Below, piece after piece: positions 1 to 6,000 of a stretch of DNA of 7,800 nt. The DNA lies in IMG/VR virus record IMGVR_UViG_2529293076_000033, positions 1 through 7,800 of that record, one strand, 5' to 3'. The position numbers were made by a program. This DNA comes from a virus (Duplodnaviria; Heunggongvirae; Uroviricota; Caudoviricetes). Numbering within the stretch: position 1 is the first letter of the stretch; the number at the start of each line of letters is the position of its first letter.

Positions 1-3000
1 GGACTACTGGCATCAACAGGGAGTACAGGCGACTCGTATGACAACGCGATGGCTGAGAGCATCAATGGTCTTTACAAAGCGGAGGTAATACACCGTAAGA
101 GCTGGAAAAACCGTGCAGAAGTGGAACTGGCCACACTAACGTGGGTGGACTGGTATAACAATCGACGATTGCTGGGAAGGCTGGGCCATACTCCTCCGGC
201 AGAAGCAGAAAAAGCTTATTATGCTTCCATCGGAAACGATGATCTGGCAGCCTGAGTTCACAGATAAAACACTCTCCAGGAAACCCGGGGCGGTTCAGTC
301 TGTGGAAATTGGATGATTCCCTTTTTAGCCAGTGTTTCAATAGTTCTCTTAACACTATCTGGTCTGCTTCCCACCAGCTCAGCTATCTCAATACTGGTCA
401 TGGATGCTTTATCGGTAAAAATTTCTGTGTTCATTGTTGGTCTCCTGTGGGCTTGTCATCTTCTGTGTTCGCAAGACCTGGGTGTGTATATGGAATGTTC
501 GGATCCAGATGACAAAGAATGGCAACATCCTCCGGTACACCTCGCGTTTTCCACTTTCCTACGCCTTGACTGCCACGAGTTTTCCCTTTCTTTGGAAATC
601 TTCGACCAATAGCAGCATTGGTTTTGAATTGAATTTTTAATATTTCATAAAGGGTCATTTTTCAGCCTTACATTGACACTTAAGTATCCGCTAATGTTAA
701 GCAATAGAACCCAAAGTATCAAGGAATTCTGCTACTTTGGTATCAAACGCCACAAGGGGAGAGGAAAATGAAATCTTTAGGTGAACGTCTCGTCATCGCA
801 CGACAAAAAGCTGGATTAACGCAAGACGCACTAGCTAAGAAGGCTGGGATCACCAGAGTTGCAATCAGCAAAGCCGAGCAAGGTCTTACAAAAAGCTTCA
901 ACGGTGACACTCTTTTTAAAGTTGCATCTGCTCTGCAATGCTCGCCGCAGTGGCTCCAGAACGGAGACGAAAAAGACAGCAATTGGGAAAATAATGTTAA
1001 ATGCTGCCCTCAGAAAGACATTGCACACTATTACCCCGTGATTAACTGGGTTCAGGCAGGCTTATTTGCTACCACAGGTGATGACTACAACATGTATGAC
1101 CATGATAACTGGAGACATTCCGTAAAATACGCTGGTGAGCGGGGATTCTGGCTGGAAGTACACGGAGACTCAATGACTTCACCTGTTGGTATTACCTTTC
1201 CTGAGGGGATGTCGATCCTTGTCAACCCAGATAAAGAAGTTTTTTCAGGGTGTTACGTAATCGCCAGAAAGAAATCCACCAATGAGGCTACATTCAAAAA
1301 ATATATCTCTGAGATGGGAAGAGCTTTTCTAAAACCCCTTAATCCACAATATCCAATCATCGAAATGGACAATGATTGCGAAATAGTAGGTGTTGTGGTT
1401 GATGCCAGGTGGGATATTTTCTAATCACAACGAAAAAGAAACGATAGTATCAAAAAAAATCTTGCCACACATTGATACCTTAGTTACCATAAAACAAAAA
1501 TCGTAACTGAGGTATCAGCCAATGCACCACAACAAAGCCACAACCCTTGACTGCCTCGAAGAGCTAAAAAATCTCGGCAGCCTCATTACATTAATAGCAA
1601 AATCAGCCCAGGACACTACACTCTCTAACGATATAGAGTCATGCGCTGGGCTCGCATGGGATATGGCAAATAGCATATCTCGCAAGTTATCAGGATCCAT
1701 ATTTTTACAGACTCCAAATACAGAAACAAACTCCCGCATTCGCATGCAACGTGAAGCCTGCGGCTTGACGACCACTGAACTTGCCAGACTACTCGATCTT
1801 GACGAAGAGATTATTCTGCAATGGGAGAGCAGAGAGTGCGAGCCAACCATCAGCATGCTTATCCCCCTGGCAAACATCCTGGGATGCGAACCGCTTTCTT
1901 TGCTGGATGAAAAAGATAGCGCGTCTGTTATTCGCGTAAATGCGCCTGAAGTCTACGTGGAAAGTATTGGCGCACGCATCAAAAGCGCACGTAAAAAACT
2001 GGGCTTAACGGAAGCTGATCTTGCCCGCATGATTAATACCTACAGTGACCCCATAAACGACTGGGAATGCGGCATCTGTGAAGTTCCTGCTGATCAGATA
2101 GTACCACTGGCCAGTGCGCTTAATTGTGACCTGGTGTGGTTGTTAACGGGAAAATCAGAAGCAAAGGAGTAGCAACAATGACTGGCAATATCCATGATAA
2201 GTATGAAGGCTTATGCCTGGCACCGGATTCCTTTGCAAACAATATCCATGATTTATTATGCGCAGTTGTCGTATTACAAATGTCAGACAACGATGCAATA
2301 AAAAGAACAGGTGATGAAGTTCTTGAATTTGCACGTTGCTATGCTGAAGCAGCAGCTGAAAAAGAACTATCCAGTTAAATAAAACATATTATCGCTGAAC
2401 AATATATTACGGCTTAATCGCCGGGGATTATCACACACTTAATCCACTGGAGGCTTTATTATGACTTTTATAAAACATAAGGCATCACACAAAACAGCCT
2501 GTCTTATTGCACAACACGGTGAAAATTACATGCATATTGCCTGCTTATTTCTGCGTAAAGCATACGGGAGATAATAATGCATCAGAAAACAGCAGAACAC
2601 GAACAAACCAGAGTATTGCTGACAATCAAAAACGGGAAAGTAATATTCATTCGCCATGTTCATGACGATGAACTTGTAGGAAGTCTTTCAACATTCCTGT
2701 TTATTGCAGAAAAGGCAGGATATGACGTTATTGCACCAGCAGATGAAGATGAGGAGTAAATATCATGCAATACGCTGAATTCCAGGCTGAAGCAACAGCC
2801 ACAGGTATACGAACTGGCAGTATGACGATTGATTATCACGACGCAATCCGCCGTCTGGATGCCGGTGAATTCGATCATCCTAATGTGAAAGGTTTACGTA
2901 TCCTTCAGTGTCTCGCGCAAGCTGACGAAGCAGGATTACTGGGAAAACTTCCGGTTGAGATGAAGGTTGCCCAGTGGCGATGGTTGTATGTGACGACATT

Positions 3001-6000
3001 CATCAACGAAGAAGAAGACAAGAACGGCACAATTGATATCCCGAATGAACACGGAACAACAAATCGCGCCGTAGTATATAACGGGAAGCATGGGTTTATG
3101 ACGATATATCCCAGTCCCATTCGTTTTGCCTTACAACAGTATATTGAATGGAATTTAATTCAAAAATACGGCGAGGCAGAAGGAATGGGTAGAGCGCTGT
3201 TTCTTTATCAGAAAATGCTCATTACATGCCCAGATAAAGGTTTCATTGTTTCAGACATGGGGCGAGAAGGGCTTGAACTCCTTCTGGATGAAATTATTAA
3301 CGAAATGAATACTCATAGCATGCAATCAGAAACCTCTATTAACTAAAAGGGACTACATGACCGTTATCGAATATATCCAGGAAAATCCAGATTGCAGTAG
3401 AGAAGATATATCCCTCGCACTTGGAAGAAGCGGAGTTTCTATCAGTAATGAATTATCACGGTTACTGTGGAATGGGTTAATTGTACGAACTGGTGAAAAA
3501 AACAAAATGATTCTGTATCGCGTAAACAATCTGCCGTTTGGATACAACAATCCCCTGAGCGTTATGTTCAACCAGTTACTTAAACAGGTAAGAAAGTCTG
3601 ATGGCGACTGACTCACAACTAACCATAGATACGGCTCTTAATGTCGGTCTGGCGCTCCTTGGTTATTTCTACATCATGTTCTGCAGCGGACGATGGCTGT
3701 CACTGTTGTTCATGAAAAAATGGAATAAACGCCGTAAGCAGGATCAACGCCAGAAGGCAATGGATGCATTTTTCGAAGCCTTCGGGATTGACGGCATGGA
3801 ACCAGGGGATCCAGCTCGCGCAATTAGCAGAGGGGGCGTAGTAATCCTTGTATATCGGAGTGAAGAGAAAAATGAGCGAGATCAACTATCAGGCACTGCG
3901 TGAGGCGGCAGTAGCAATTGAAACAGTAGCAACGCCTCAAAAATTGCTGGCATTTCGTATGAAAGTCACACCGTCGGTGGTACTGGCGCTGCTGGATGAA
4001 CGAGATGCATTAAACGAACGCATAGCCGAACTGGAGGCTAATTTAGCGGAGCTGGCCGAAGACCAACAGAAAGCGATTGAGTCAATTAAGCAGGCTGATG
4101 CGGCTGTTAAGTTGGCACACGAGAAGTTTTCGGTGCTGGCGGCAGAGAATGCGGAGCTTAAACAGTCGGAGAAGGAATTTAATAACTTCTGTCGTCAGGA
4201 GTACTACGGTTGGGAGGACAACTTCACGGAAACCCCAGCCACCGACGCTTTCCTGGCTGAAATTCGTGCGGCGGCTCGCAACGAGGGTATTAACTATACC
4301 GCAAGCCGTCTTGCTGCTGCTTTCAATCACGGATTTATCAATAAGTCTTTGCGTGAAGTTTTCGACGTTACACGCATGATTTTATCAGCGAAAGAAGAGT
4401 TGGCTAATGAAGCGCATCCGATTGATGGCCTGTCTGGTGAATATGCGGAGAAATCCCTTGAAGAATGGGCGGAACAGATTCGCAAAGGAGGAAACCAGTG
4501 AGCAAGATTGACTATCAAGAACTTCGTGAAGCAGCAGTAGCAATTGAAACAGTAGCAACGCCTCAAAAATTGCTGGCATTTCGTATGAAAGTCACACCTC
4601 AGGTTGTGCTGGCTCTACTGGATGAACGGGAAAGAAACCAGCAATACATCAAACGCCGCGACCAGGAGAACGAGGATATTGCGCTTACGGTAGGGAAGCT
4701 GCGCGTTGAGCTTGAAGCAGAAAAACAGCGGGCAAAAGTTCTATTTATGGAAAATGCTCGGCTTAAGTCAGGCATAGCCGGTCTGATACACCTCGGTCAA
4801 TATGCAGATATTGAGGTCATGAGAATTGCTGGAGATGCCCAGCTTTCTACCCCATGCACTGACAGCATCATAAAAAGCATTGCAACAGGCATTCGCATCA
4901 AAGGAGAGTGAGATGAACGGACAAATCTCAATTGTTCTACCGGGAGCATGTGACGATCGCGAGATACGAATGATTATTCGTCTGGCGATGGGGAAAACAA
5001 TAACTGCTCTCATTACTCCAGAAAATCTCGCATTAGCATTAACCGGAAAGTCAGACCTGCCAGTAGAGCTAAAGCTGCGAAATGTTGAGATTAAGGTGAA
5101 ATAGCTATGACCACTATTACCGACAAAGAGCTAATTAGAGAAATTAAAGAACATATCAGCAGTCTGGGGGGGGGCGGACAATATTGAGCGCCGTGCTTAT
5201 GAAATTGCGTTGACTGCATTGACCGCTGAACCATTCGCCACTATCGACACCGCGGGAATTGAGCTCGTTAAATATGGTTGTAACACGTTTATTTGTCCCG
5301 ACAATTCGATGGATCCGGGAAATGTACCGCTATATATCGGCCTGCCACGAATTGAGCCAGCAAGCCAGACTGCCAAGCTGTCATTCCAGGAATGGTTGTC
5401 AGAACAAAAAGAAAAAATAGACGTTGATTGCGGATGTGTAAGCATCGAAACGCTTACGCACTGGATGAAATCAGCTTATGAGGCTGGCAACTCTCCGGTA
5501 ACTCCGGATGGTTGGATAAGCTGTAGTGAGCGAATGCCAGAAATGGGAGAGCGACAATGCTATGTGTTAGCAGCTGACTTTAAAAACAACTACCCACCAA
5601 ACATCCCCAACACTCAGGTCGGCGTATATGGCGACTGGTTTAATGATGGCAATCCCACTTGGGATGACGGTGATGGCGAAGACCTGTATCTCAAAGAGGT
5701 AACCCACTGGATGCCTCTACCAGAACCGCCGCAGGAGGTGAAATGATGAATTGGCCTGAAGCATTCACCGCAGTTGGAGTTGCAATAGCGGTGGCATTTA
5801 TTCTGTATTCGCTTTTCCGCTGGGGATAAAGGAATGTTCGCGCTGATTCAACGTGGTCAGATATACAGAGCCGGATACCCTGTGGTGATTATTCGCAGTA
5901 CTCAGCACTCAGTGTTCTTTCGACGCATGGACGGGTGCTCCGGACGGGTACGCATTGGTGAGTTCAACAACCTGTTCGAACATATTGACCAACAGGAGTA

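What the first reader, a model, noticed from the sequence alone, without database searches (positions are those of the whole stretch)
2577..3903. Tightly coupled four-gene block with no recognisable functions: small acidic protein, 193-aa protein, winged-helix protein, membrane protein
Four ORFs are packed with 5-10 nt gaps or overlapping start/stop codons (2759/2765, 3346/3357, and an ATGGCGACTGA overlap at 3601-3611), which suggests translational coupling and a functional unit. It combines a 60-aa protein with an acidic tail, a 193-aa protein without motifs I recognise, an 84-aa winged-helix-like DNA binder and a protein with an N-terminal transmembrane-like segment. A small DNA binder plus a membrane component plus an unknown larger protein is an arrangement seen in exclusion or abortive-infection modules, though it could equally be ordinary early-left lambdoid accessory genes. 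It sits where lambda carries recombination and kil functions, none of which it resembles.
Basis: inference. Interest (0 to 1): 0.55.

Follow-up and report, generated by a model that had tools for sequence, protein, structure and literature searches.

The report
Mosaic early-left prophage accessory genes
The four tightly packed genes are real, but they are three separately inherited pieces of the early-left operon of a Shiga-toxin-type lambdoid prophage, not one functional unit or a defence module; the only unusual parts are a 193-residue protein with no recognisable fold relative and an overlooked 37-codon gene that travels with it.

Summary
All four ORFs exist, have Shine-Dalgarno sequences or overlapping start/stop codons, and are under purifying selection (dN/dS 0.1-0.3). 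The window is 99.96% identical to the yecE-integrated Stx1a phage Stx1_14040.

- Tight packing runs through the whole operon from 1522 to the integrase, so it does not single out these genes.
- In 5,426 complete E. coli genomes, p37-G1-G2 occurs in 327, G3 in 140, G4 in 560, and the full block in 120.
- Homology breakpoints fall at each gene junction (about 3323, 3576-3620 and 3911).
- G4 is DUF4752, a small N-out/C-in membrane protein. It also follows TraR/orf73-like genes and sits in the nin region of ST64T.
- G3 is a minimal winged-helix protein that also occurs in P2-like phages.
- No protein matches a defence model.
- The genes lie downstream of an operator-flanked pL-like promoter.

The co-inherited core is p66, an overlooked 37-aa ORF (2461-2574), G1 and G2. 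Relatives of p37 and G2, and often of G1, recur together in other Enterobacterales and in an Aeromonas phage. G2 gives a confident model (pLDDT 88) with no structural neighbour. Function remains unknown.

The parts
1440..1517 (+). pL-like promoter region with operator-like TTGATAC half-sites, immediately downstream of the cI/LexA-like repressor gene (768-1424)
   Evidence: Promoter-like hexamers lie at 1462-1490 and 1472-1501. An inverted repeat spans 1473-1490/1500-1517, and copies of the same half-site lie at 703-746 in the divergent region upstream of cI. Function is inferred, not shown.
1522..2172 (+). First gene of the early-left operon: a 216-aa regulator with two HTH domains
   Evidence: Pfam HTH_3 E 1.3e-13 with two stretches. 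phrog_4739 and phrog_4836 'CII-like regulator'.
2178..2378 (+). p66, a 66-aa acidic protein (net charge -7); some relatives carry it as the C-terminal part of a 121-aa protein
   Evidence: phrog_4587 E 2e-35. Co-occurs with G1 and G2 in 66 of 66 regions. dN/dS 0.20-0.25.
2461..2574 (+). p37, an overlooked 37-aa basic micro-protein (MTFIKHKASHKTACLIAQHGENYMHIACLFLRKAYGR); its stop codon is 2 nt before the G1 start
   Evidence: A GGAGG SD lies upstream. dN/dS 0.06-0.08 against diverged alleles. Homologues with an invariant C-terminal L[YF]L[RK]KAYG motif lie upstream of G2 homologues in Klebsiella, Aeromonas, Citrobacter and Phytobacter loci. Found in 36 phage records. No Pfam or PHROG family. 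Annotated in LC567819 but not in RefSeq.
2577..2759 (+). G1, a 60-aa acidic protein (net -6) with an (ED)n tail of variable length; member of phrog_340
   Evidence: phrog_340 E 3.6e-22, plus weak matches to the C-terminal part of families named anti-repressor. Tail variants range from ADEDEE to ADEDEDEDEDEDEDEDEE. The Klebsiella homologue GP33 matches phrog_340 at E 5e-33.
2765..3346 (+). G2, a 193-aa acidic protein (net -10); member of phrog_1515; its predicted fold has no recognisable relative
3323..3357 (.). Mosaic junction between the G2 module and G3
   Evidence: Homology to phiP27 and to G3-less prophages ends at 3323. As a result, the window's G2 lacks the family's nearly invariant C-terminal ...P..P..H ending.
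3357..3611 (+). G3, an 84-aa minimal winged-helix protein
   Evidence: phrog_1687 E 1.4e-24. Pfam MarR_2 scores 18.8 bits, below the cut-off of 27. A profile search of PDB returns mainly MarR, ArsR, PafC and IclR wHTH regions at E 0.025 to 2. A 43% homologue occurs in the P2-like phage P88 in a different context.
3576..3620 (.). Mosaic junction between G3 and G4
   Evidence: Homology to a G3-only prophage ends at 3576, and homology to G4-only prophages starts at 3620. GC3 steps from 0.40 in G3 to 0.48 in G4.
3601..3903 (+). G4, a DUF4752 small bitopic inner-membrane protein (predicted N-out/C-in)
   Evidence: PF15944 E 4.5e-39, 132.8 bits against a cut-off of 27. Hydropathy and flanking charges. 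AF2 helix 3-60 plus hairpin 72-85, pLDDT 68.9. Found in 560 of 5,426 E. coli genomes and in many other contexts.
3872..4501 (+). Ead/Ea22-like gene whose start lies 32 nt inside G4; one of several alternative downstream neighbours of DUF4752
   Evidence: Pfam Ead_Ea22 E 4.8e-10. RefSeq annotation. Downstream neighbours of G4 in 59 contexts: 35 'MTITKQRVE...', 20 Ea22-like, 3 other, 1 none.

Best explanation
The block is a slice of the polycistronic early-left (pL-type) operon of a phiP27-like, yecE-integrated, Stx-converting lambdoid prophage. It consists of three independently inherited mosaic modules, not one system.

Module A (about 2193-3323) comprises p66, the overlooked 37-aa p37, G1 and G2. 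These are small cytoplasmic proteins, three acidic and one basic. They are always inherited together in E. coli, and p37, G1 and G2 relatives recur together in other genera.

Module B is G3, an optional minimal winged-helix DNA binder.

Module C is G4, a DUF4752 N-out/C-in membrane protein. It moves freely between early-left and nin positions of many enterobacterial temperate phages.

Shown:
- the genes are real and under purifying selection;
- the operon layout, the co-occurrence pattern and the homology breakpoints;
- the family memberships and the lack of any defence-family match.

Inferred:
- the genes are transcribed from the operator-controlled promoter at about 1462-1501 after induction or infection, and translated in a coupled fashion;
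- they act, like the lambda exo-xis genes, as dispensable early accessory factors that adjust host physiology or the lysis-lysogeny course;
- G1 and G2 probably act by binding partner proteins rather than by catalysis, since no catalytic-looking set of invariant residues was seen.
For: Identity and position.
- Window 296-7800 is 99.96% identical to Stx1a phage Stx1_14040.
- The genes lie between the cI-like repressor and xis/int, all on one strand.
- Operator-like half-sites flank cI on both sides and overlap a promoter-like site at 1462-1501.
- There is no excess of internal promoters or terminators.

Modularity.
- In 83 distinct regions, p66, G1 and G2 co-occur in 66 of 66. G3 is present in 42 of those 66. 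G4 is present in 54 regions, 17 of them without G1-G3.
- Genome counts are 327, 140, 560 and 120 of 5,426.
- Homology breakpoints lie at 3323, 3576, 3620 and 3911, and GC3 steps up at the G3/G4 boundary.
- G4 lies next to orf73/TraR-like or other genes, and in the nin region of ST64T.
- A G3 homologue occurs in P2-like P88.
- Distant G2 loci keep p37 and usually a G1 homologue, but never G3 or G4.

Coding status and families.
- dN/dS is 0.06-0.30 for all six ORFs.
- There is no convincing PADLOC hit.

Literature context.
- Early-left exo-xis genes are small, pL-transcribed, variable modulators of the lysis-lysogeny decision (PMC8614690, PMC3824215).
- Lambdoid genomes exchange such genes as small modules (PMC9836094).
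Against: - No transcript or protein data were examined, so repression in the lysogen and co-transcription are inferred from sequence alone.
- No intrinsic terminator separates cI from the operon. Read-through from the repressor transcript in lysogens is therefore not excluded, as happens for lambda rexAB.
- The functions of G1, G2, p37 and G4 are unknown, so 'accessory modulator' is an argument from position and analogy.
- G3 was never seen without module A in the sampled close relatives (42 of 42). Some dependence of G3 on A is therefore not excluded within this phage lineage.
- Sampling is dominated by E. coli prophages that are close relatives.
Confidence: 0.75

Rival explanations
1. The four genes form an exclusion, abortive-infection or toxin-antitoxin-like module: the membrane protein G4 is the effector, the winged-helix G3 its regulator, and G1 and G2 are sensor or accessory parts.
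For: - G3 and G4 overlap by 11 nt, and G3-type genes are the commonest upstream neighbour of close G4 relatives, in about 35 of 59 contexts.
- Small membrane proteins paired with small DNA binders do occur in known exclusion systems (general knowledge).
- In distant relatives, a gene with a ParE-like toxin domain (PF24732, E 3e-19) lies directly after the G1 homologue.
Against: - No convincing PADLOC match for any of the four proteins.
- The genes are not co-conserved. G4 is equally at home behind TraR/orf73-like and other genes, and in the nin region.
- Homology breakpoints lie at every junction.
- There is no promoter or terminator of its own above chance. The location behind an operator-flanked early promoter argues against expression in the lysogen.
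- The ParE-like gene is absent from the window and from all E. coli versions.
Confidence: 0.07
2. Module A (p66, p37, G1, G2) is a previously unrecognised host-takeover or counter-defence module. It would be a set of promoter-proximal, strongly acidic early proteins that bind and neutralise a host nuclease or defence factor, as Ral and Gam do at the equivalent place in lambda.
For: - Promoter-proximal position in the early-left operon.
- Net charges of -7 (p66), -6 (G1, with a poly-acidic tail) and -10 (G2).
- Strict co-inheritance in E. coli. p37, phrog_340 and phrog_1515 recur together in Klebsiella and Citrobacter, and p37 with phrog_1515 also in Phytobacter and an Aeromonas phage.
- No catalytic-looking set of invariant residues across 48 G2 relatives.
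- A confident model with a fold that has no known relative.
Against: - No similarity to any known anti-defence or DNA-mimic protein.
- Acidity and position are weak predictors.
- G1 is missing from the Aeromonas AsXd-1 cluster. p37 and G1 also occur without G2, for example in Fels-1, ENT39118 and vB_EcoM-705R4.
- Nothing experimental is available.
Confidence: 0.15
3. G2 is an unrecognised recombination protein (single-strand annealing type) that fills the place of the missing Red/Erf module.
For: - It sits where lambda has bet and exo, and the phage has no recognisable recombination module.
- The model contains a three-stranded sheet followed by a long helix (residues 89-135).
Against: - Profile searches against PDB find nothing.
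- The complete phage carries 10 Chi sites against 2.1 expected, 8 of them on one strand. That fits the described class of lambdoid phages that lack a Rec module and rely on host RecBCD (PMC12315714), so no hidden recombinase is needed.
Confidence: 0.03

Closest known systems
Lambda / Stx-phage exo-xis (early-left accessory) region: orf60a, orf63, orf61, orf73, ea22
   Same: Same genomic place (between the pL-proximal genes and xis/int) and same strand. Both are small, tightly packed ORFs of mostly unknown function, highly mosaic between phages. An Ead/Ea22-like gene follows directly. In other prophages DUF4752 sits between orf73 and ea22.
   Different: None of G1-G4 is homologous to orf60a, orf63, orf61 or orf73. 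This phage has no exo or bet, so strictly there is no 'exo-xis' interval. No phenotype is known for these genes, whereas the lambda genes have reported effects on lysogenisation and induction (PMC3824215, PMC8614690).
Pfam DUF4752 (PF15944)
   Same: G4 matches end to end at 132.8 bits against a cut-off of 27. Relatives occur in Stx, P22-like, P1-like, Klebsiella, Erwinia and Hafnia phages.
   Different: Nothing differs; it is a plain member. The family has no assigned function, and no paper in the searched library mentions it.
MarR-family / minimal winged-helix phage regulators (phrog_1687)
   Same: The N-terminal 60 residues of G3 align with the HTH and wing of MarR, ArsR, PafC and IclR proteins. 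It matches phrog_1687 at E 1.4e-24.
   Different: G3 is 84 aa against about 140 aa and lacks the MarR dimerisation helices. Its Pfam MarR_2 score is below the cut-off. It matches only the C-terminal half of the PHROG profile (positions 69-153 of 162). It has its own conserved C-terminal motif, PFG..NPL...FNQLLK.
phiP27 early-left genes L08-L07-L06 (PHROGs 5451/4587, 340, 1515)
   Same: The same gene order (p121/p66, p37, G1, G2) at 55-81% protein identity, in the same position next to the repressor.
   Different: In phiP27, G2 is followed by a small membrane protein and an SPFH-like lipoprotein instead of G3 and G4.

Membership tests
Known anti-phage defence / abortive-infection systems (PADLOC models) | At least one component matches a model of a known or candidate defence protein | tested here: not met
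   G1 and G4 give no hit. G2 gives only Csx20 at E 0.018. G3 gives only weak wHTH matches to CARF and CasR models at E 1e-4 or worse.
Known anti-phage defence / abortive-infection systems | Components are co-conserved as a unit across genomes | tested here: not met
   Co-occurrence in 83 distinct regions. Genome counts of 327, 140, 560 and 120. Breakpoints at each junction.
Known anti-phage defence / abortive-infection systems | Expressed in the lysogen from its own promoter (moron-like: promoter, terminator, atypical composition) | tested here: inconclusive
   No promoter or terminator excess, and the block lies downstream of an operator-flanked early promoter. GC is lower in 2178-3600, but without a discrete cassette boundary. 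Expression itself was not measurable here.
Type II toxin-antitoxin pair | Adjacent small antitoxin (DNA binder) and toxin that always travel together | tested here: not met
   G3 occurs without G4, and G4 occurs without G3. No toxin-family match for G4.
Pfam DUF4752 (PF15944) | HMM score above the gathering threshold over the full domain | tested here: met
   132.8 bits against 27, covering residues 8-90 and profile positions 2-84 of 84.
MarR family transcriptional regulators | Pfam MarR or MarR_2 score above the gathering threshold; a protein of about 140 aa with dimerisation helices flanking the wHTH | tested here: not met
   MarR_2 scores 18.8 bits against a cut-off of 27. The protein is 84 aa. 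PDB MarR chains align only over their wHTH part.
Winged helix-turn-helix superfamily | Sequence profile matches the HTH and wing of several wHTH families | tested here: met
   Five Pfam wHTH families at E 0.002-0.11. 22 of 26 weak PDB profile hits are wHTH regulators. phrog_1687 at E 1.4e-24. No structure model was made for G3.
Lambdoid early-left (pL) operon | Same-strand gene array running from next to the repressor gene to xis-int, starting at a promoter with repressor operators | tested here: met
   Gene order and strand. Promoter-like site 1462-1501 with TTGATAC half-sites shared with the cI-upstream region. Promoter activity itself was not tested.
Lambda exo-xis conserved block (orf60a-orf63-orf61-orf73-ea22) | Homologues of the five conserved genes | tested here: not met
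   Only Ead/Ea22-like genes are present, downstream of the block. G1-G4 match other PHROG families.
Phage recombination (Rec) module: annealing protein, exonuclease, anti-RecBCD | Sequence or fold similarity to a known annealing protein, nuclease or RecBCD inhibitor | tested here: not met

The most novel reading that the evidence does not exclude
The overlooked micro-protein p37, the acidic G1 (phrog_340) and G2 (phrog_1515; confident model with no structural neighbour) would form a conserved, previously undescribed early-gene module of temperate phages of Enterobacterales and Aeromonas. It would act on a host target, for example as a counter-defence or host-takeover factor, with the variable (ED)n tail of G1 tuning the interaction.
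Probability: 0.15. Interest if true: 0.55.

Novelty: new member of a known kind. Interest (0 to 1): 0.25.

Why it matters
As proposed, it matters little. The block is an ordinary piece of lambdoid mosaic and not a new defence system. Showing this saves a phage-challenge experiment built on the wrong unit.

Three things are useful to keep.
1. The correct experimental unit is p66-p37-G1-G2, with G3 and G4 as separate items.
2. A conserved 37-codon gene is missing from the RefSeq annotation of hundreds of EHEC genomes.
3. G2 is a well-folded, phage-restricted protein family with no recognisable fold relative. It sits promoter-proximal in the early operon of Shiga-toxin phages. Early genes of this region in other Stx phages influence induction, and hence toxin release (PMC3824215, PMC4699033).

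Tried and rejected
- Fold search of G2 against afdb50: the library was unavailable.
- Locus search with the broad G2 alignment A5: no stretch was conserved enough. The narrower A2 gave only 6 genome loci.
- G2 as an annealing protein: rejected as noise-level. Chi enrichment explains the missing Rec module.
- p66 as a paralogue of G2 or of phrog_1737: hhalign probability 0.1%.
- p37 as a zinc-binding peptide: the Cys and His residues are not conserved.
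- Rfam and tRNA scans of the window: nothing.
- The search for homologues of G1 recovered only close relatives. The link to the C-termini of 'anti-repressor' families rests only on PHROG E-values of 3e-5 and 3e-4 and could not be followed further.
- Literature search for DUF4752: no papers.

Full report
**Where the window comes from**

- Window 296-7800 is 99.96% identical to the left arm of Stx1a-converting phage Stx1_14040 (LC567819). It is 99.87% identical to a prophage integrated next to yecE in E. coli O145:H28 strain 16003.
- Bases 1-295 are the end of an IS3-family element that interrupts a Rha-family gene.
- All on the + strand, the window carries:
  - a LexA/cI-like repressor (768-1424);
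  - a regulator with two HTH domains (1522-2172);
  - a run of small genes;
  - two Ead/Ea22-like genes, DUF551 and DUF4222 genes;
  - an excisionase (6227-6481) and an integrase (from 6515).
- This is the early-left arm of a lambdoid prophage.

**Checking the observation**

- Each has an SD-like sequence or is start/stop coupled.
- Against diverged alleles they show dN/dS of 0.14-0.28 (G1), 0.11-0.25 (G2), 0.11-0.28 (G3) and 0.19-0.30 (G4). They are genes.
- G1 ends in APADEDEE and has net charge -6. G2 has net charge -10.
- G4 has a single hydrophobic stretch (residues 11-37). The flanks carry -2 (N side) and +7 (C side), which predicts an N-out/C-in topology.
- AF2 gives G4 one long helix (3-60) and a beta hairpin (72-85) at moderate confidence, pLDDT 68.9.
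- The packing is not peculiar to these four genes:
  - a 37-codon ORF (2461-2574) stops 2 nt before G1;
  - p66 starts 5 nt after the upstream regulator;
  - the Ea22-like gene starts 32 nt inside G4;
  - its paralogue overlaps it by 37 nt.
- Promoter-like and terminator-like sites occur at or below the frequency in shuffled sequence.

**Is it a unit?**

I fetched loci around relatives of each of the four proteins from IMG/VR. I then scored the presence of all neighbours in 83 distinct regions that had enough flanking DNA.

| Gene(s) | Result in the 83 regions |
|---|---|
| p66, G1, G2 | together in 66 of 66 |
| G3 | present in 42 of those 66, never seen without them |
| G4 | present in 54, of which 17 lack G1-G3 |

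Counts in 5,426 complete E. coli genomes (megablast):

| Segment | Genomes |
|---|---|
| p37-G1-G2 | 327 |
| G3 | 140 |
| G4 | 560 |
| whole of 2400-4100, at least 80% covered | 120 |

- Pairwise blastn places the ends of homology at 3323, 23 nt before the G2 stop. They also fall at 3576 and 3620, on either side of the G3/G4 overlap, and at 3911.
- GC3 is 0.27-0.41 from p66 to G3 and 0.48-0.50 for G4 and the Ea22-like gene.
- Where G3 and G4 are missing, G2 is followed by a 62-aa membrane protein and a 275-aa SPFH-like lipoprotein, or by other cargo.
- In 59 distinct contexts, G4 is preceded by:
  - a G3-type gene (about 35);
  - a TraR/orf73-like zinc-finger gene (17);
  - a 100-aa protein (3), or other genes.
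- In the same contexts it is followed by an 'MTITKQRVE' gene (35), an Ea22-like gene (20), another gene (3) or none (1).
- In VT2-Sakai, G4 sits between the DksA/TraR-like gene and ea22.
- In the P22-like phage ST64T, it sits in the early-right operon just after the helicase gene.
- A 43% homologue of G3 lies in the P2-like phage P88, followed by an Ea22-like gene.

**The individual proteins**

G4 is a plain member of Pfam DUF4752, at 132.8 bits against a cut-off of 27. Relatives occur in Stx, P22-like, P1-like, Klebsiella, Erwinia and Hafnia phages. No paper in the searched library mentions the family.

G3
- It belongs to phrog_1687.
- Its first 60 residues match the HTH and wing of MarR, ArsR, PafC and IclR proteins, weakly but consistently.
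- It is too short to be a MarR protein and scores below the cut-off. It has its own conserved C-terminal motif.

G1
- It belongs to phrog_340 and shows weak similarity to the C-terminal part of families labelled anti-repressor.
- Its acidic tail varies in length between alleles, from ADEDEE up to ADEDEDEDEDEDEDEDEE.

G2
- It belongs to phrog_1515 and matches nothing in Pfam, NCBIfam, PADLOC or the PDB sequences.
- An exhaustive profile search found only 120 clusters among 1.84 billion representatives. Almost all are stand-alone proteins of about 200 aa, and the ten relatives scanned had no Pfam domain.
- AF2 gives a confident model: pLDDT 88.2, pTM 0.83.
- Foldseek against PDB and against predicted viral structures gives nothing at E 1e-3 or better.
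- Across 48 relatives the conserved positions (D37, R72, F79, R120, E128, Y148, G166, terminal H) do not form a recognisable catalytic motif.
- The window allele has lost the conserved C-terminal ending at the mosaic junction.

**The real conserved core**

- The 37-aa ORF at 2461-2574 has a GGAGG SD and dN/dS of 0.06-0.08 against the phiP27-type alleles.
- GenBank LC567819 annotates it, but RefSeq does not.
- Homologues of 35-37 aa end in L[YF]L[RK]KAYG. They lie upstream of G2 homologues in:
  - Klebsiella phage KPP5665-2;
  - Aeromonas phage AsXd-1;
  - Phytobacter;
  - two Citrobacter species;
  - an unnamed Enterobacterales genome.
- In those distant clusters the order is p37, phrog_1737, G1 homologue (phrog_340), ParE-like domain gene, phrog_1886, then G2. 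The ParE-like gene matches PF24732 at E 3e-19.
- None of these loci has G3 or G4.
- The C-terminal 57 residues of G2 are homologous to phrog_1737 proteins (hhalign 85%, E 6e-6).
- The association is not absolute:
  - AsXd-1 has lost the G1 homologue;
  - Fels-1 and vB_EcoM-705R4 have G1 relatives without G2;
  - p37 occurs next to the repressor gene in several phages that gave no G2 match.

**Regulatory setting**

- TTGATAC half-sites occur both upstream of cI (703-746) and just downstream of it (1440-1517). At the downstream site they overlap promoter-like hexamers at 1462-1501.
- This is the OR/OL arrangement expected for a lambdoid immunity region. It implies, without proving, that the operon containing the block is repressed in the lysogen.
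- No terminator-like site separates cI from the operon, so low-level read-through is not excluded.

**Why recombination genes are absent**

- The complete phage has no annotated Rec module.
- It carries 10 Chi sites against 2.1 +/- 1.5 expected, and 8 of them lie on one strand.
- This matches the described class of lambdoid phages that lack a Rec module and are Chi-rich (PMC12315714). There is no need to suppose that G2 is a hidden recombinase.

**Conclusion**

The 'four-gene functional unit / exclusion module' reading is not supported.
- The block is an ordinary, mosaic stretch of an early-left operon made of three modules.
- The most likely role is that of dispensable early accessory factors. 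This is analogous to the lambda exo-xis genes (PMC8614690, PMC3824215) and fits modular exchange among lambdoid phages (PMC9836094).
- What remains open is the function of the p37-G1-G2 core, in particular of G2, whose predicted fold has no recognisable relative.

Noticed in passing
window 2461-2574 (+): A conserved 37-aa micro-ORF (p37) with a strong SD. Its stop codon is 2 nt before G1. dN/dS is 0.06-0.08. It is conserved with an invariant C-terminal L[YF]L[RK]KAYG motif across Enterobacterales and an Aeromonas phage. It is missing from the RefSeq annotation and has no Pfam or PHROG family.
   Followed up: yes
window 2736-2759 (3' end of G1): The acidic tail of G1 is a GAA/GAT-type repeat whose length varies between alleles, from ADEDEE up to ADEDEDEDEDEDEDEDEE. 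The last GAGGAG also serves as the SD of G2.
   Followed up: partly
window 1-295 and 258-434 (-): The first 295 bases are the end of an IS3-family element (transposase C-terminus at 49-255). It interrupts a Rha-family regulator gene that is intact in the reference prophages. Homology to LC567819 starts at base 296.
   Followed up: partly
window 703-746 and 1440-1517: TTGATAC half-sites repeat on both sides of the cI-like gene, in an OR/OL-like arrangement. The downstream set overlaps a promoter-like site and an 18-nt inverted repeat (1473-1490/1500-1517).
   Followed up: partly
window 3873-4002 and 4499-4628: The two consecutive Ead/Ea22-like genes share a 131-bp stretch at 89% identity at their 5' ends. 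This internal direct repeat could drive deletions or duplications.
   Followed up: no
L276 2374-2592 (Klebsiella phage KPP5665-2), and equivalents in L277, L280, L281, L282: In distant versions of the cluster, a 72-aa gene with a ParE-like toxin domain (PF24732, E 3e-19) sits in the cluster upstream of the G2 homologue. In KPP5665-2 and one Citrobacter locus (L282) it lies directly after, and overlaps, the G1 homologue. It is absent from all E. coli versions.
   Followed up: partly
window 3143-3313 (G2 residues 127-183) vs L276 1790-2152: The C-terminal ~57 residues of G2 are homologous to the C-terminal half of the phrog_1737 proteins encoded a few genes upstream in non-E. coli clusters (hhalign 85%, E 6e-6). 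This suggests a shared domain within the cluster.
   Followed up: partly
L288 (LC567819, complete phage): The complete phage has 10 Chi sites (GCTGGTGG) against 2.1 expected, 8 of them on one strand and clustered at 7.9-13.2 kb. No recombination module is annotated. This fits the 'no Rec module, Chi-rich' class of lambdoid phages.
   Followed up: partly
window 5107-5234: RefSeq marks a frameshifted DUF551 fragment just upstream of the intact DUF551 gene (5210-5746).
   Followed up: no
window 2178-2378 vs 1522-2172: p66 and the N-terminal part of the upstream two-HTH regulator both hit phrog_4836 ('CII-like regulator'), p66 only weakly (E 1.3e-4). p66 may be a paralogue of that regulator's N-terminal domain. 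In phiP27-type phages it is the C-terminal half of a 121-aa protein.
   Followed up: no
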